Position numbers: made by a program. A DNA stretch of 46,655 nt from Calditrichaceae bacterium (GTDB taxonomy: Bacteria; Calditrichota; Calditrichia; Calditrichales; JBFXGD01): the NCBI GenBank assembly GCA_050178385.1, contig JBFXGD010000008.1, positions 1-46,655 of the forward strand. The letters run 5' to 3'. Shown here one piece after another: positions 12,001 through 24,000 of this stretch; the stretch's first letter is position 1, and each line of letters starts with the position of its first letter.

Positions 12001-15000
12001 ACCAAATCCATCCATTTTAAAATCAAAGCGGATGTGGTGAGTTACCGGGAAGTCCTGCAAATAAGTGATCTGGATTTCCGGTATGATACGGAATGGGTAC
12101 TTCGCAATCTGAATCTTAATATCATTCGAGGTGAAAAAGTAGCCCTTGTCGGTGTTAACGGCGCCGGTAAAACCACCTTGACCCGGCTGATCACCGAACA
12201 ATTAAAACCGATTTCCGGAACGCTCAATCTTGGTGAGCGCGTTCAGACCGGATATTATGCGCAGCACCAGGTGGATACTTTAAATCTGGATAACACTATT
12301 TACGATGAAGTGGCATCCGCTGCCGCGCGTTCGTTCCAGCCAAAATTAAGGGATATTTTGGGAGTATTTCAGTTCAGTGGCGGCGATATTGAAAAAAAGA
12401 TCGGTGTACTTTCCGGTGGTGAAAAAGCCAGAGTCTCCCTGGCCAAAATTTTACTGTCACCCAGTAATTTCCTGATCATGGATGAACCCACAAACCATCT
12501 CGATTTGAAATCAAAGGAAGCCCTTGAAGTAGCATTAACAGATTACGACGGAACATTGTTACTGATATCCCATGACCGTTATTTCCTGGACAAGCTTGTG
12601 AACCGCGTGATCGAACTTAGGGATGGTAAACTCACGGAATATTTAGGTAATTATTCTGAATATCTCTCTAGAAGAGAAGAAATATCTTACAATGCACCTG
12701 CGTCGGAAACAGTGAGGCCGGATGATTCCGGGAAACCTGCTGCAAAGAAATCAAAAGAACAGAAACGGATTGAAGCTGAAGCCAGACAGAATGTGAGTAA
12801 GGAACGAAACAGACTCAAGAAGGAAATATCCCGACTGGAAGAAAAGATAGACATATTAACAAAACGACAATCAGAACTTGAAATTCAGCTTGCTGACCCG
12901 TCTACCTATCAGAATGCCGATCTGGCCGCAACTCTTCAGGTTGAATATAACCGGATTTCGGATGAAATGCCCGGTTTGGAAATTAAATGGGAACAGGCTC
13001 AACTGGAATACGAGACACTCCTGACTTCGATGGAACAACTATTAAACCAATGACATTAATAATTATCAGCCAATTAAATTCAATTTTGATATTCTGTAAC
13101 CCTGATATTATCCCAACCTTTTTTCATCAACTTTTCTGACTGTCATAATCACAGGTTTTCGCCGGTTTCTGTGCTAATGTGATTCGTATCCTTTTAATCC
13201 ACCCTTTGGAACAATTAGCTTAAAAACTTCACGGCAAATTTCAATCATTTCACCATCCACATTGATAAATTCCGAACCATTTTTTTTGAACAGCGCTATA
13301 TTTGATAGCTCGAAAACTCCTCTGATTTTCTCAAGATAGTATTTCCATTCAACGTCAGTAAACTCTTTGACCTTTCCATGCGTGTACTGAGCTTCCATTA
13401 ACCTGTTTTTGGGATCAAAAAAGACAAAATTCCCCCGGGAAGCGCCACCAAGCATTTTTGTCCCGAGATATGGTCTCTCATTCAGACACAATTGCCCCCT
13501 GCTGTTAAAGTGCATACCTCCAAAGAAAAAGTTGCCCCCCATTAGTGATTCACCGGCATATTTTGTGGCTGAACCCAGGATCAATACTTCAAGATCCTGA
13601 CACCGCGTATCGTTTACAGAATTTGTCCAGCAGCGATCAACCACATTCCCCATGATGAATACCTTTCCCCCTTTGGAAGCGTATCCGCATACCTTGCCTG
13701 CATTTCCATATACATATAGATTCCCGTGATGCATACCCATTGCGCAGAAGTTTTGAGCATTCCCATGAAGCCGGATCGTTCCGCCCTGCATAAATGCTCC
13801 GAAATACTCACCCGCGGATCCGTACACATCCATGATGACATCATCCGTGTCACCACTGCCCATTACAGCCGTCGAAATCAGTCTTTGCCCGGTTGCCCGG
13901 TGTATAAGATATTTCCTCCAGCCCATATCATAAGCTCTGTTCAAAAACGCCGCGAGTGAGAGCACCGGATCCGAGCCCTCGGGTAAGAAACGACCGGCGT
14001 CTATAACCATGACGTGGTTCTCACCGGGTGTGATATTGAACGATCCGGCCTCCTCACGGCTGACATGAACAAAATTTGTAAATTGCGGTTCATTAGACCG
14101 GTCAAGAAGCTGATCAATAAAATATTGTACCGTATCAATCAATGAACTTTGAGCCTTCTCACCCGGATTTAGTGTTCTGGTTGCATCCCGCAGCCAGGTC
14201 AGAATTTCAAGTTTTTTAAAAAATGATGAATTATCTTCTGTTTCGGCAACTAATTTATTCAGCAGCCAGCCCAGATCATTGAACGTGATTAACGATAGAT
14301 TTTTTCTAAAAAACGCCCTGAAATCATTTTCCCAACCTTCAAAGGTGGCGACATCAGGCGGTTCAACCAGTTTCGCGCGCCTGATGCTGTAATGTTTTCC
14401 GGTGGATTCGATGATGATTTCCTTGCCGTATCTGTCAAAAAATTCGAATCCTGTAATCTTGTTTTTATCATCAAAATGGTAGCGGCTGATCATGCCTGAA
14501 CTTACCAGTACTTTATCAGGCATAGCCCCGTCGATTAATCCATCTTTATCCAGTAATTCCATCATTTTCTTTAGCGCCTGCTCTTCAGATGCAATCATGC
14601 TAAAAACACGGTCTCCCTCTTTCCAGAACGCGCTGACATTGGGGCGAAGATCGGCAGGATCTTTTAAGTCGACCCGTTCCGTTACTTTATTTTGCGGATC
14701 ATGACGAAGACAAAGATACTGATAGGGCCCGTCCGGTGAACTGGCGAACTCCACCCGCTGAATCTGTTCCAGCTTTGGTTTCAAAGCAGGATCGATCAAT
14801 TTTAAGTCATCCCCTGTTGTTGGTGAAAAGCTTTCGAACATTGCCCAGTCAGGGTAAGCCCATTCATCACCGATCAGATGAAATTTCAGCGCGGCAACGT
14901 CCGTATCGGTCGAGGCGAGTGGCGACAGACCAAATTGTTCCACACGCTGCCGGAGCGCTTCATAATTTGTCGTTTCACCGTTATGGGTCAATGCGGTATG

Positions 15001-21000: not shown

Positions 21001-24000
21001 CTCTTTTCTTACCCTGAGTATTGCTCCGATAATGATCCCAACTTGCCCTTCACTCCCAAAATAATGGTCAAAATCATCCTGATTAGAATCGACAACCCTG
21101 AGTTCTCCCTGTGGTGTTATAACAAGAATGGAAAATATTGACTGGCTTATGTGCCCGTATTTATAGCTTCCGAGACCTAATCCCCCGGTTGCAATCCAAC
21201 CCGTTATCGTGCCGCTGTTCTTGTTTGTTATCTCCTGGCGCAGCGCGAATCCGTTCTCTTTCAGGTAATTCCGCGCATCAGGAAATATGACACCCGCGCT
21301 AAATCCGAAAACCGCGTTTTCCCTGTCAAGGTATTTGAAATCGAGATATGACAAATCCAAAATGATGTCTTCATTGATCGGCACCGCTCCGCCAAAGGGC
21401 CATGTTCCCGCTCCGCGGATTGTATAGTGGATATTGTTATTATGAGCCCATTCAACAAATATTCGTGTATCTTCAATGGTCCCGGGGCGAATGATAAACG
21501 AACATTTCACATTCAGCAGCCATTTCTTAAAAAGCCTGGGGACCATATGCGTACCTGTATCGGCCGAATAGATTTCCCGCTGTACGGCTCCCGGGATAAA
21601 AACTTCAGTCGCCGGACTGAGTAATTGCCCGAGTGCGTCTATTTGCTCCTGATATTTTTTGGAAATCGGTAGATTTTCCCTGAATCCATCCAGAATCAAT
21701 CGCCGTGATTTTTGCTGTTCTCTTACTTTGTCCTGGCAAGACTGATTAAGCAGAAAGGAATATATTTTGTCCCGATCGCCCACCGGAAGTGCATTCATCA
21801 TAAAAATTCTCCCATGCTTGGAAGTTTGAGCTGCTTTAGATGTACCGCGTGATTGATTAAACATCTTTCTCTGTCAGCAAACAGTAAAGATTGAAACTTA
21901 TCCATTAAACAGAAGGGGAATTATGATTGAAATCAACAATTACTCTGATTAAAAAAATTTACATCCTCAAATTTTATGATCCTGCTTATTTAGGTTCGGT
22001 TGACGCGGCGGTCGATAAAACATCAAGAAGGAGATCTTAAGAGGTTCAGTATTCGGGTTCATTAGAAAAATAAAAAAAAGCGGCAATTTTAGTTGCCGCC
22101 TTCATAATCATTTCGCGTTTTGCAGATCTTTTACACGATCCGTTTTTTCCCAGGTAAATTCTTTCAACTCTCTCCCGAAGTGTCCGTATGCTGCAGTTTT
22201 TCTATAGATTGGTCGTCTCAGTTGGAGAGTCTCAATAATACCGGCTGGAGTAAAATCAAAAAGTTCGCTTACAATTTTTTCGATTTTCTCTTCATCAATT
22301 ACACCTGTACCGAATGTTTCGACCATCAAAGAAACCGGCTTTGAAACACCAATGGCGTATGCAACCTGAATTCCGCAACGTTCGGCAAGACCAGCAGCTA
22401 CGATATTTTTCGCAACATATCTTGCAAAATATGATGCGGACCGGTCCACTTTCGTAGGATCCTTTCCGCTAAAAGCTCCACCACCATGGCTGTACATCCC
22501 GCCATATGTATCAACAATAATTTTTCTTCCTGTTAGACCAGTATCTCCCTGCGGTCCTCCGGTCACAAACCGGCCTGTTGGATTAATAAAATATTCGATA
22601 TCAGCAGTTTTTTGCATTTCCGCCGGAATTACCTTTTTGATCACTTCTTCGATGACAGCCTCTCTTAGTATTGCGGCTGAAACATCAGGATCATGCTGAG
22701 TGGACACGACAACCTTCTCAACACCGACGGGTATTCCATCCTGATACCGAACAGATACCTGTGATTTACCATCCGGTCTCAAAAATGGGAGGATACCTGA
22801 CTTGCGGACTTCCGCAAGCTTAGCCGTAATTTTATGCGCCAAAGAAATCGGCATCGGCATATATTCAGGGGTCTCTTTGCAGGCATATCCGAACATCATT
22901 CCCTGATCACCCGCACCCGCTTTGTCAACACCCATGGCAATATCATTGGATTGCTGATCGATTGATGTCATAACCGCGCAGGTTTCGTAATCAAAACCAT
23001 AACTCGCGTTTGTATATCCTATATCTCTTATAACTTCCCGCGCCAGCGTCGGAATATCAACATAACAATCTGTGGTAATTTCACCGCCGATTAGTGTTAA
23101 TCCTGTTGTAACAAACGTTTCACAAGCGACTCTTCCGAACGGATCCTGAGCCAATACCGCATCTAACACTGCATCCGATATCTGATCAGCTATCTTATCC
23201 GGATGGCCTTCGGTCACGGATTCGGATGAAAATAAATATTTCCCCATTAATCACTCCTTCGACTACAATATGAATTAAGTTTAGCTGTTAAATATAGCTA
23301 ATTTTTGATAATAATTCCAGCCAACCTTTTCCGAAATTAATTCCCAAATTTTGCCAGTTGGCTCTTCAGGTAGTCAATGTTTTTGATATCATCCGGTGAT
23401 TTTTTGTAAGCCAAAGCAAGATAATAACTTACCCAGTCACCCAGAATGATGAGGGAAAACACTTTTTCGAGGGTCGTTTCACCGTCGGAATATATATCTA
23501 CAACCTCAACCCCGCGATCTTTGATAATTTTTTTGGATAGTTCAATTCTTTGTTTGATGCGCGGCAAAGGATTTTCATTTTCTACAAATATCACGATAAA
23601 ATCTTTGACACAAGGCTGTTCAAGCTCCCATCCAACTATTTCATTGTGATTAAACTCCGGGAGGACGTTTGAGAATGCCAATGATTTGCCATTTTCCTGC
23701 ATCTGATTTTGCCAGCGTCTTGAAATTGCGCTTAAGTATGGTGCCGTGGAATAAATGATCGGAATCTTTCTGTGAATGGTCTGAGCCAGCTCCCTGGAAA
23801 GAATATGACTATCCGTTGTTGCATAATCATTTCTTCTTGATGTGTCTTTTGCAAATTTCACCAGCTGACTTAAATCCGGATCGTAACTATCTAAAAATCC
23901 TTCTTTACCTAACATATGATAGAGAGGAAAGAAGATATAACCAAGAGCCTGACGGGGAGGATACCCTTGTGGTATCTCAATTAAACCCCAGTTCTGTTCA

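What a model noticed while it worked through the whole genome (the two positions that open the first line are those of the whole stretch)
13174..21801. 2875-residue single-chain glutamate-synthase-like enzyme with a built-in GlcD-type FAD module is the only GOGAT candidat [...]
g00353 fuses, in one 2875-aa chain, a FAD_binding_4 (GlcD/D-lactate dehydrogenase type) module, three 4Fe-4S motifs, a glutamate-synthase FMN barrel, a class-II amidotransferase-like segment and the GXGXG domain, and the genome has no GltB of the usual kind. I read it as the cell's GOGAT in which the NADPH-binding small subunit is replaced by a fused 2-hydroxyacid (lactate/glycolate-type) dehydrogenase, so that glutamate synthesis is driven directly by hydroxyacid oxidation. 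New would be an electron-donor class for glutamate synthase and a function for a giant protein conserved at 55-68% identity across several phyla.
Evidence so far: Pfam: FAD_binding_4 102-236, Fer4 615-681 and 755-807 (CxxCxxCxxxC at 616, 667, 795), Glu_synthase 1377-1879 (207 bits), GATase_6 2244-2311, GXGXG 2651-2758. Swiss-Prot: only residues 1360-1900 match archaeal-type GltB (23-32%). 216 long homologs; full-length ones of 2830-2990 aa at 53-91% identity in Calditrichota, KSB1, Zhuqueibacterota, Gemmatimonadota, Krumholzibacteria; a ~2530-aa form at 41% in others. Genome table: two GlnA, several GDH, but no other gene with Glu_synthase+GXGXG+amidotransferase; g02479 is a Rieske-Glu_synthase GltB-like fragment only. 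The central domain of classical GltB (PF04898) has no hit in this genome nor in the sister species (97% complete); 17 of the 39 genome [...]
(Added by a program. Inside this text positions count along the whole contig: contig position 1 is position 1 of the stretch shown here. "Call 12" and the like, gene names such as g00115 and contig names such as C1 are that model's own, and its searches are not shown. The text may have been shortened before it was handed on; [...] marks where a part breaks off. The agent that wrote the report below was given it as the finding of a first reader that could run no searches.)

Follow-up and report, generated by a model that had tools for sequence, protein, structure and literature searches.

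The report
Giant fused glutamate-synthase-like iron-sulfur flavoenzyme
One 2875-residue gene fuses all the parts of a glutamate synthase, in a rearranged order, to its own flavin and iron-sulfur electron-entry module; it belongs to an undescribed enzyme family of uncultured bacteria, and the compound that feeds it electrons is unknown.

Summary
It is conserved at 53-91% identity in full-length relatives.

New anatomy found here:
- The unassigned stretch 845-1300 is a second, synthase-type TIM barrel.
- There are four Cys4 iron-sulfur motifs, not three, plus the three-Cys motif of the FMN barrel.
- The class-II glutaminase has its full catalytic set, but its nucleophile Cys1935 is internal. The chain would have to cut itself to 220 + 107 kDa.

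Evidence for a role in glutamine/glutamate metabolism:
- The same modules occur fused in another order.
- They also occur as a three-gene operon.
- A shorter fused form sits directly behind glnA and before carAB.

The FAD module is homologous to GlcD/LctD. Of the three metal ligands and the catalytic base of D-2-hydroxyacid dehydrogenases it keeps only one His.

"Only GOGAT candidate" is true for this genome and for one closed relative. In the phylum (86 genomes) 28 have the giant only, 24 the classical GltB only, 6 both and 28 neither.

Verdict: a new variant of glutamate synthase with a fused, non-pyridine-nucleotide flavin entry module. The donor is unknown. No literature search found it described.

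The parts
13174..21801 (-). Whole gene, 2875 aa plus stop. An upstream in-frame ATG at 21864 would give 2896 aa.
20122..21624 (-). Residues 60-560: VAO/GlcD-type FAD domain with cap domain. The metal and base site is altered: H453 is kept, Y497 replaces the catalytic His.
   Evidence: Pfam; hhalign to canonical GlcD-like proteins, probability 99.9% (global) and 99.6% (local); column counts
19732..19968 (-). Residues 612-690: first dicluster domain, Cys4 motifs at 616-626 and 667-677 (2 x [4Fe-4S], GlcF/GlpC-like N-terminal type).
19372..19539 (-). Residues 755-810: second ferredoxin-type dicluster domain, Cys motifs at 763-775 and 795-805.
17902..19269 (-). Residues 845-1300: barrel 1, a second Glu_synthase-type (beta/alpha)8 barrel. 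It lacks the three cluster Cys and the GGTGASP motif. It has an invariant GMGQGDRHMGIGFDAERFxHFHIVGPAQN loop and an SGGIR..D..K..GA motif.
16102..17673 (-). Residues 1377-1900: barrel 2, the FMN (synthase) domain. Q1534, K1537 and R1557 sit at the GltS positions recalled as Q969, K972 and R992. Three-Cys motif C1825/C1831/C1835.
15997..15999 (-). Codon of Cys1935, the predicted N-terminal nucleophile. Proposed self-cleavage site QSN|CGVAA.
   Evidence: Invariant in 28 of 28 and 34 of 34 sequences; it starts the first strand of the AF2 model
14392..15999 (-). Residues 1935-2470: class-II (Ntn) glutamine amidotransferase domain with an insertion of about 250 residues. R1961, N2274-G2275 and D2299 are invariant.
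13402..13944 (-). Residues 2620-2800: GXGXG beta-helix.
13177..13224 (-). Residues 2860-2875: C-terminal tail ...PKGGLKGYESH, conserved to the last residue (GYH in the short form).
22071..22100 (-). Hairpin plus T-run behind metK. It sets the giant gene apart as its own transcription unit.
   Evidence: Read directly from the sequence; not tested

Best explanation
The gene encodes a self-contained, glutamine-dependent enzyme of the glutamate-synthase (GOGAT) type, made as one 328-kDa precursor.

Proposed mechanism, step by step:
1. The chain cuts itself between Asn1934 and Cys1935 into 220 + 107 kDa. This frees Cys1935 as the N-terminal nucleophile of a class-II glutaminase (inferred).
2. The glutaminase hydrolyses glutamine. 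Ammonia passes through an internal tunnel lined by the GXGXG beta-helix to barrel 2 (inferred from GltS).
3. Barrel 2 binds 2-oxoglutarate through Lys1537 and Arg1557 and forms 2-iminoglutarate. Reduced FMN converts it to glutamate (residues shown to be conserved; chemistry inferred).
4. FMN is re-reduced through a three-Cys cluster and four [4Fe-4S] clusters from FAD in the N-terminal module (cysteine motifs shown; electron flow inferred).
5. FAD takes a hydride from a two-electron donor that is not yet known. The pocket derives from GlcD/LctD-type dehydrogenases but has lost their metal site. It keeps one His and carries an invariant Tyr (Y497); an invariant Arg (R404) lies nearby in sequence, but its structural position was not resolved.
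6. Barrel 1 is a duplicated synthase-type barrel standing where classical GltB has its central domain. Its role is open: scaffold, tunnel wall or a second flavin site.
For: Glutaminase:
- C1935, R1961, N2274-G2275 and D2299 are invariant in 28 of 28 and 34 of 34 sequences. Assigning them to the catalytic set of class-II glutaminases rests on recalled motifs.
- The AF2 model (pLDDT 83, pTM 0.84) starts its first strand at the Cys.
- It matches GlmS, GltS, AsnS and PurF.

Synthase site:
- PF01645 scores 207 bits.
- The alignment to solved GltS chains covers the QGAK..GG...KV....R loop and the Cys motif.

Electron wire: four invariant Cys4 motifs plus C-x5-C-x3-C.

The modules belong together:
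- They occur permuted in P0180, with the glutaminase-GXGXG module at 77-1201 ahead of the FAD module (hhalign E 3e-77).
- They occur as three overlapping genes in L120.

Nitrogen context:
- glnA lies directly upstream in 16 of 20 short-form loci by script, plus L071 by ORF listing and Pfam.
- carA-like genes lie downstream in 19 of 20 and carB-like genes in 18 of 20.
- glnA, asnB, carB and GAF-ANTAR genes stand near split relatives.

Self-processing is plausible:
- All 8 stand-alone glutaminase-GXGXG genes examined carry 36-44 residues ahead of the CGV motif (78 in L128, whose start is uncertain).
- Mutating Cys1 of B. subtilis GltA abolishes activity (bioRxiv 10.1101/2021.04.12.439528, passages read).

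No other GOGAT set exists in this genome or in the closed genome G001/G035.
Against: - No activity, cleavage or cofactor data exist for any member. All carriers are metagenome-assembled genomes.
- Two catalytic-loop positions differ from GltS: the second Glu of GEGGE is Tyr1424, and the position recalled as Gln978 is His1543.
- The best NCBIfam score for gltB is 121 bits against a cut-off of 1047.
- 28 of 86 genomes of the phylum have neither form and 6 have both, so the cell may not need it as its GOGAT. The genome also has GDH-type genes.
- The long form, including this window, has no nitrogen genes as neighbours: 0 of 29 loci have glnA within 6 kb.
- An internal Ntn nucleophile behind 1934 residues has no precedent known to me among class-II amidotransferases.
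- The donor is unknown.
Confidence: 0.55

Rival explanations
1. The same enzyme, but the FAD module is a working D-lactate/glycolate-type 2-hydroxyacid dehydrogenase, so hydroxyacid oxidation drives glutamate synthesis.
For: - The N-module is homologous over its whole length to GlcD-like proteins (hhalign probability 99.9%). Its best solved relatives include LctD, D-LDH and D2HGDH.
- FAD_binding_4 fused to a Fer4_8-type dicluster domain also matches, weakly, the NCBIfam models of GlcD, GlcF and YdiJ. That these enzymes use this architecture is recalled.
- An invariant Arg (R404) may correspond to the carboxylate-binding Arg347 of LDHD. This correspondence was made by eye; hhalign places it elsewhere.
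Against: - Three of the four positions that bind the metal or act as base in LDHD are lost in 34 of 34 members. The His405 position is Q or L, Glu442 is deleted, and His443 is Tyr (PMC10589216, passages read: each Ala mutant is inactive).
- The same Pro-Tyr replacement occurs in all seven architecture variants checked, five of them beyond this family's two forms.
- ADPS, a non-dehydrogenase, scores as well as LctD with the single sequence.
- No lactate or glycolate transport or metabolism gene is conserved nearby.
Confidence: 0.12
2. A GltB-like amination or amidotransfer machine that does not make glutamate. It would act on another 2-oxo acid, or run a redox-neutral exchange as N-methylglutamate synthase does.
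For: - It is divergent from curated gltB models (121 of 1047 bits).
- Two loop positions are altered (Y1424, H1543).
- Barrel 1, with an invariant His/Asp/Gln/Asn-rich loop, could be a second active site.
- From my own knowledge, three-part GltB-like proteins with other chemistry exist (N-methylglutamate synthase). This was recalled and not tested.
Against: - Lys1537 and Arg1557, at the positions recalled as the 2-oxoglutarate-binding residues of GltS, are invariant.
- The full glutaminase set is present.
- A five-cluster wire plus FAD argues for net electron input, not a redox-neutral exchange.
- glnA is adjacent in the short form.
Confidence: 0.15
3. Electrons enter from ferredoxin or another protein at the Fe-S domains. 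The FAD module would be structural or regulatory, or an exit site when the enzyme runs backwards and oxidises glutamate.
For: - Relatives with the same two barrels and glutaminase-GXGXG gene lack any FAD_binding_4 gene. Each barrel unit there carries its own ferredoxin domain (7 of 7 loci examined).
- The archaeal-type FMN subunit also has an N-terminal ferredoxin domain.
- The FAD pocket has lost the canonical catalytic residues.
Against: - The FAD-binding domain and about 20 cap residues are invariant across forms only ~39% identical overall. This argues for a working site.
- The FAD module stays linked to the other modules in fused, permuted and split arrangements.
- A strictly conserved glutaminase makes little sense for a glutamate-oxidising direction.
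Confidence: 0.1

Closest known systems
Bacterial NADPH-glutamate synthase large subunit GltB/GltA (PDB 1ea0, 6s6s, 7mfm) with small subunit GltD
   Same: - Ntn glutaminase, FMN synthase barrel with a three-Cys cluster, and GXGXG beta-helix.
- Lys and Arg at the positions recalled as the 2-oxoglutarate-binding residues.
- A flavin - Fe-S - Fe-S - cluster - FMN wire, as in the alpha-beta protomer (PMC8097209, passages read).
   Different: - Domain order is permuted, with the glutaminase behind the synthase barrel. The nucleophile is therefore internal.
- There is no PF04898 central domain; a full second synthase-type barrel stands in its place.
- Electrons enter by a VAO/GlcD-type FAD domain and four [4Fe-4S] clusters in the same chain, not by GltD.
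- Cys spacing is x5/x3, not x5/x4.
- GEGGE is GEGGY.
Archaeal-type split glutamate synthase (separate glutaminase, Fer4-FMN and GXGXG proteins), seen here next to the short form in L071 and L090
   Same: - A ferredoxin domain precedes a synthase-type barrel.
- The short form is 36-38% identical to the Fer4-FMN subunit in barrel 2 and 31% in barrel 1.
- The glutaminase aligns at hhalign probability 97%.
   Different: - In the giant's family the glutaminase carries an insertion of about 250 residues and is fused to GXGXG.
- There are two barrels instead of one.
- The donor module differs: Pyr_redox_2 in the L071 cluster, a VAO-type FAD module here.
FAD-dependent D-2-hydroxyacid dehydrogenases (GlcD, LctD 7qh2_C, mouse LDHD 8jdc, human D2HGDH 6lpn), and FAD plus Fe-S fusions such as YdiJ
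   Same: FAD_binding_4 plus cap fold over the whole length, followed by a Fer4_8-type dicluster domain. That GlcF and YdiJ carry this domain is recalled; their NCBIfam models match weakly.
   Different: - The metal triad and catalytic His are not kept: 1 of 4 positions.
- Pfam calls no CCG domains.
- Electrons would go into the same chain rather than to quinone or Etf.
F420-dependent glutamate synthase of methanogens and ANME archaea (named in PMC9012536, passages read)
   Same: A GOGAT whose electron-entry module has been exchanged for a different flavoprotein.
   Different: The module is an FrhB-type F420 oxidoreductase, not a VAO-type FAD domain. No comparison of sequences was made here.

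Membership tests
Glutamate synthase (GltS/GOGAT) large subunit | Class-II (Ntn) glutaminase domain with catalytic Cys, Arg, Asn-Gly and Asp | tested here: met
   C1935, R1961, N2274-G2275 and D2299 are invariant in 34 of 34. The fold matches GlmS, GltS and PurF. The mapping to catalytic roles rests on recalled motifs.
Glutamate synthase (GltS/GOGAT) large subunit | The nucleophile Cys is the free N-terminal residue of the mature chain | not testable with these tools
   The Cys is residue 1935 of the translation. It needs self-cleavage. Stand-alone homologues also carry 36-44 residues in front of it.
Glutamate synthase (GltS/GOGAT) large subunit | FMN synthase domain (PF01645) with the Lys and Arg that bind 2-oxoglutarate | tested here: met
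   207 bits. K1537 and R1557 are invariant and align in the QGAK...R loop of solved GltS. GltS residue numbers K972/R992 are recalled.
Glutamate synthase (GltS/GOGAT) large subunit | Three-Cys motif of the [3Fe-4S] cluster in the synthase domain | tested here: met
   C1825-x5-C1831-x3-C1835 is invariant and aligns to C-x5-C-x4-C of 7mfm_G and 2vdc_A.
Glutamate synthase (GltS/GOGAT) large subunit | Central domain (PF04898) | tested here: not met
   The only Pfam hit is at E 0.022, and it falls on barrel 2. Barrel 1 aligns weakly to GltA 578-677 (independent E-value 0.53). By structure it matches the synthase domain 835-1200 best.
Glutamate synthase (GltS/GOGAT) large subunit | Domain order glutaminase - central - FMN - GXGXG | tested here: not met
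   The order here is FAD - FeS - barrel 1 - FMN barrel - glutaminase - GXGXG.
Glutamate synthase (GltS/GOGAT) large subunit | C-terminal GXGXG beta-helix | tested here: met
   PF01493 at 43.5 bits against a cut-off of 32.5. The AF2 model shows a run of short beta-strands over model residues ~647-935, read as a beta-helix.
Glutamate synthase (GltS/GOGAT) large subunit | Curated equivalog score (NCBIfam NF008730) | tested here: not met
   121 bits against a cut-off of 1047.
Glutamate synthase (GltS/GOGAT) large subunit | Makes two glutamates from glutamine plus 2-oxoglutarate plus two electrons | not testable with these tools
   No biochemical data exist; all carriers are uncultured.
GlcD/LctD/LDHD-type FAD-dependent D-2-hydroxyacid dehydrogenase | FAD_binding_4 domain plus FAD-oxidase_C cap | tested here: met
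   PF01565 at 80 bits. hhalign to canonical GlcD-like proteins gives probability 99.9% over 425 columns. PF02913 is called in the short form.
GlcD/LctD/LDHD-type FAD-dependent D-2-hydroxyacid dehydrogenase | Metal ligands His-His-Glu and catalytic His (mouse LDHD His398, His405, Glu442, His443) | tested here: not met
   Only the His398 position is kept (H453, 34 of 34). The His405 position is Q (22) or L (12). Glu442 is deleted. His443 is Tyr497 (34 of 34). Roles are taken from PMC10589216 passages.
GlcD/LctD/LDHD-type FAD-dependent D-2-hydroxyacid dehydrogenase | Arg that binds the substrate C1 carboxylate (LDHD Arg347) | tested here: inconclusive
   R404 is invariant in an LWxxR context that resembles LDHD by eye. 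hhalign aligns the canonical Arg to a non-conserved stretch about 30 residues earlier.
Archaeal-type split glutamate synthase | Separate glutaminase, Fer4-FMN and GXGXG polypeptides of about 390, 500 and 250 aa | tested here: not met
   This gene is fused. Its split relatives have a different partition: about 1196, 537 and 909 aa, or about 460, 505 and 875 aa. No GXGXG gene of about 250 aa occurs in the phylum.

The most novel reading that the evidence does not exclude
This is the fused form of an undescribed branch of glutamate synthases with three unusual properties.
- The electron-entry module is exchangeable and does not use pyridine nucleotides. Here it is a metal-free VAO-type FAD domain; in split relatives MetF/MetV-like genes stand directly upstream.
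- The enzyme matures by cutting itself in the middle, at an internal Ntn cysteine behind a 1934-residue 'propeptide'.
- Barrel 1 is a second catalytic flavin site.

The boldest form: the FAD site oxidises a C5 acid such as D-2-hydroxyglutarate to 2-oxoglutarate. One enzyme would then supply both the carbon skeleton and the electrons and turn it, with glutamine, into two glutamates.
Probability: 0.12. Interest if true: 0.85.

Novelty: new variant of a known kind. Interest (0 to 1): 0.66.

Why it matters
Glutamate synthase is the main gate for nitrogen into biomass. Its known forms take electrons from NADPH, NADH, ferredoxin or F420. A form with its own organic-substrate flavin dehydrogenase would tie nitrogen assimilation directly to the oxidation of a carbon compound. 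That would change how nitrogen budgets are read from the genomes of Calditrichota, KSB1, Zhuqueibacterota, Gemmatimonadota, Thermodesulfobacteriota and others that lack classical gltBD.

An Ntn amidotransferase that must be released from the middle of a 328-kDa chain would be a new case of protein self-processing. The second barrel and the altered FAD pocket are two conserved sites with no assigned chemistry.

In practice, genome annotation now calls these genes 'FAD-binding protein' or 'glutamate synthase-related'. It also scores such genomes as lacking GOGAT.

Tried and rejected
- Direct sequence search of the cap region (residues 280-560) against solved structures gave only a chance hit. 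The site was mapped instead through hhalign to canonical GlcD-like proteins of relatives.
- The apparent two-gene 'split' of the short form in L071 and L090 is a frameshift. It lies at different places in the two loci, and the protein alignment runs on seamlessly. It was therefore not used as evidence of modularity.
- No sigma-54-like promoter was seen by eye upstream of the gene. No scan was run.
- The long-form neighbourhoods gave no conserved partner. A histidine kinase and a sigma-54 response regulator follow in a few loci only.
- RNA evidence: no RNA holder was listed for the gene. No reads were laid.
- Our earlier findings, searched by place, words and sequence: nothing.
- Literature: searches found no description of this fusion or family. 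The library lacks most subscription journals, so this is not proof that it is undescribed.
- The idea that barrel 1 is simply the classical central domain was rejected as stated. Structure and profile comparison place it with the synthase barrel.
- NCBIfam gave no family above its cut-off for barrel 1, barrel 2 or the C-terminal module.

Full report
**1. The observation**

The minus strand of the window is open from 21864 to 13174 (2896 aa from the first ATG). That start follows a GGGAGA and matches the N-terminus of the 91%-identical relative.

Pfam reproduces all the domain calls (pieces mapped):
- FAD_binding_4, 102-236;
- Fer4 types, 615-681 and 755-807;
- Glu_synthase, 207 bits in four pieces spanning 1377-1879;
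- GATase_6, 2244-2311;
- GXGXG, 2651-2758.

NCBIfam gives only sub-threshold hits. The gltB model scores 121 bits against a cut-off of 1047, and glcD scores 61 against 568.

The search of 5.8 billion proteins returned 216 long relatives. A 2829-2992-aa form is 53-91% identical and a ~2530-aa form about 41%. The names attached to them are only 'FAD-binding protein' or 'glutamate synthase-related protein'.

metK upstream ends in a hairpin plus T-run. The downstream ABC-F gene is convergent. The gene therefore stands alone.

**2. Anatomy, from an alignment of 28 full-length relatives (A1) and of 34 translated loci**

*(a) Residues 60-560: FAD module.* This is a complete GlcD-type FAD domain with cap. 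hhalign against canonical GlcD-like proteins taken from relatives' genomes gives probability 99.9% over 425 columns. Those canonical proteins align end to end with glycolate oxidase 9qgz, LctD 7qh2_C and mouse LDHD 8jdc.

*(b) Iron-sulfur motifs.* Four invariant Cys4 motifs, at 616, 667, 763 and 795, make two dicluster domains.

*(c) Residues 845-1300: barrel 1.* This stretch had no domain call.
- hhalign against the FMN barrel of the same protein gives probability 96.7%, E 4e-10.
- PF01645 hits it weakly in this and five relatives' genomes.
- The AF2 model (pLDDT 75) is a beta/alpha barrel.
- Foldseek lists the same FMN/IMP barrel class, and the ESM Atlas points to PF01645 clusters.
- Barrel 1 lacks the three cluster cysteines and the GGTGASP stretch. 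It keeps an SGGIR..D..K..GA motif.
- It holds the most conserved loop of the whole protein, GMGQGDRHMGIGFDAERFxHFHIVGPAQN. That loop aligns with the substrate loop of barrel 2. AF2 could not place this loop (pLDDT below 50).

*(d) Residues 1377-1900: barrel 2, the synthase domain.*
- The QGAK...KV....R loop keeps Q1534, K1537 and R1557.
- The Cys motif C-x5-C-x3-C aligns with C-x5-C-x4-C of solved GltS.
- Two positions differ: GEGGE reads GEGGY, and the Gln after the loop is His1543.
- The GltS residue numbers K972, R992 and Q978 are recalled, not taken from a call.

*(e) Residues 1935-2470: class-II glutaminase.*
- C1935-G-V-A-A, R1961, N2274-G2275 and D2299 are invariant.
- The AF2 model of 1931-2875 (pLDDT 83, pTM 0.84) starts its first strand at the Cys.
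- It matches GlmS, GltS, asparagine synthetase and PurF.
- An insertion of roughly 250 residues lies between the N-terminal and the HNGE motifs.

*(f) Residues 2620-2800: GXGXG beta-helix.* It is followed by a tail conserved to the last residue.

The short form lacks only loops and decorations.

**3. The internal nucleophile**

In GltS the N-terminal Cys does the glutaminase chemistry, and its mutation abolishes activity (bioRxiv 10.1101/2021.04.12.439528 and PMC8097209, passages read). Here the Cys is residue 1935.

The eight stand-alone glutaminase-GXGXG genes of split relatives all carry 36-44 residues before the CGV motif, ending in a conserved EEGG. L128 has 78, but its start is uncertain.

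Removal of a leader therefore seems normal for this glutaminase type. In the giant the 'leader' is the rest of the enzyme. Cleavage would give 220.3 and 107.3 kDa. This step is inferred, not shown.

**4. The modules belong together**

A profile of barrel 1 was searched against 1.84 billion representatives. It found 436 proteins at E ≤ 0.001. Pfam scans of twelve of them and loci fetched with one of them show the same parts in other arrangements:
- P0180 (3152 aa) has the whole glutaminase-GXGXG module at residues 77-1201, in front of the FAD module (hhalign probability 100%, E 3e-77).
- L120, from a Chloroflexota MAG, has three genes overlapping by 4 bases: FAD-cap-FeS-barrel 1 (1196 aa), Fer4-barrel 2 (537 aa) and glutaminase-GXGXG (909 aa).
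- Seven further loci were examined, out of 20 returned. All have Fer4-barrel 1 and Fer4-barrel 2, separate or fused to about 990 aa, followed by an 870-910-aa gene. That gene has a GXGXG call at E ≤ 1e-10 in 6 of 7. None has a FAD_binding_4 gene.
- In 3 of those 7 loci, MTHFR-like genes (MetF, with a MetV-like DUF5981) lie directly upstream.

The FAD module thus looks like one of several exchangeable partners of a conserved two-barrel/glutaminase core. GOGATs with swapped donor modules are in print: F420-dependent glutamate synthase (PMC9012536, passages read).

**5. Is it a GOGAT for the cell?**

*Evidence for:*
- This genome has no other GXGXG, PF04898 or PF00310 gene.
- The only other PF01645 gene is a Rieske fusion, with no glutaminase beside it.
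- A closed 4.7-Mb relative (G001 = G035) has only the giant.
- In the short form (Thermodesulfobacteriota MAGs), glnA lies within 650 nt upstream on the same strand in 16 of 20 loci by script. In L071 the same is seen by ORF listing and Pfam.
- An ABM-domain gene follows in 18 of 20 loci, a carA-like gene in 19 of 20 and a carB-like gene in 18 of 20. Pfam was run on representatives only.
- Split relatives sit near glnA, asnB, carB and a GAF-ANTAR regulator.

*Evidence against a strict need:*

| Genomes of the phylum (n = 86) | Count |
|---|---|
| Giant only | 28 |
| Classical GltB only | 24 |
| Both | 6 |
| Neither | 28 |

- The odds ratio is 0.25, Fisher p = 0.01. Kinship was not corrected for, so the p-value overstates.
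- Two genomes were assigned from the GXGXG type alone: G079 (giant) and G016 (classical).
- Among the 34 genomes at least 95% complete the counts are 16, 7, 3 and 8.
- One closed genome has both (G069), one only the classical form (G011), and one 92%-complete single-contig genome has neither (G087).
- Within one genus two species have the giant and one the classical enzyme (g21).
- L071 and L090 carry a complete archaeal-type split GOGAT cluster right beside the short form.
- This genome has two GlnA and several GDH-type genes.
- None of 29 long-form loci, this window included, has glnA within 6 kb.

**6. The donor**

Mouse LDHD binds Mn through His398, His405 and Glu442. It binds the carboxylate with Arg347 and uses His443 as base. 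Each Ala mutant is inactive (PMC10589216, passages read). The motifs H-x-GDGN-x-H and GEHG-x-G that hold these residues are present in 9qgz, 7qh2_C and 8jdc.

In the giant's family:
- the first His is kept (H453, 34 of 34);
- the second His position is Q (22) or L (12), and there is no conserved His within 454-467 (one His in 34 at 459);
- the Glu is deleted;
- the base His is Tyr497 (34 of 34).

The Pro-Tyr replacement is also present in five further architecture variants, including the split and the permuted form, so it was seen in all seven sequences checked. R404 is invariant and may be the carboxylate Arg, but hhalign places the canonical Arg elsewhere.

The module is therefore a distinct, metal-free offshoot of the GlcD clan. 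A hydroxyacid donor is neither shown nor excluded, and the canonical mechanism is not available to it. The own genome has no canonical GlcD, only an ADPS-like protein.

**7. Verdict**

The best reading is a single-chain glutamate synthase of a new architectural branch, with:
- a built-in FAD/Fe-S entry module;
- a duplicated barrel;
- a glutaminase that must be freed by internal self-cleavage.

The donor and the role of barrel 1 are open. Six literature searches found no description. The library lacks most subscription journals.

Noticed in passing
L071:558-5663 and L090:523-5663: A complete archaeal-type split GOGAT cluster lies directly beside the short form of the giant in two Thermodesulfobacteriota MAGs; in L071 a second glnA also lies between the cluster and the giant. 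The cluster has a 390-aa glutaminase, a 504-aa Fer4-FMN protein, a 421-aa Pyr_redox_2 protein and a 246-aa GXGXG protein. Two GOGAT-like systems therefore sit in one locus.
   Followed up: partly
L122:6030-7585, L130:6625-7968, L134:6358-7979: MTHFR-like genes (MetF, with a MetV-like DUF5981) stand directly upstream of the two-barrel and glutaminase-GXGXG genes in 3 of 7 split relatives examined. They may be an alternative electron-entry partner.
   Followed up: no
G000:C131:3186-4103 (L001:1405-3039, minus strand): A 544-aa Rieske [2Fe-2S] plus Glu_synthase fusion (299 bits) lies next to an NMO-type gene. It has no glutaminase or GXGXG partner. A similar 553-aa frame is present in G005.
   Followed up: partly
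window 13177-13224 (-): The C-terminus of the giant is conserved to the very last residue: ...GYESH in the long form, ...GYH in the short form. This suggests that the free carboxyl end has a role.
   Followed up: no
L071 near 10712-10727; L090 near 9349-9392: The short-form gene is broken by one frameshift in each of two long-read MAGs, at different places. This is likely an assembly error or recent decay, not a true split.
   Followed up: yes
window 32338-33204 (-): A Cas6-family gene (PF01881). No search for a CRISPR array or other cas genes was made.
   Followed up: no
window 6600-10248 (+): An EtfB, EtfA and long acyl-CoA dehydrogenase (573 aa) cluster lies about 3 kb beyond the 3' end of the giant gene, on the other strand. 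No link to the giant was found.
   Followed up: no
G000:C2:17783-18106 and three other contigs: There are four GltD-like (Fer4_20) genes in a genome without a classical GltB. Their partners were not examined.
   Followed up: no
L125:14235-15083: A CCG-domain protein (HdrB/GlcF-like) lies two genes downstream of the glutaminase-GXGXG gene in one split relative.
   Followed up: no
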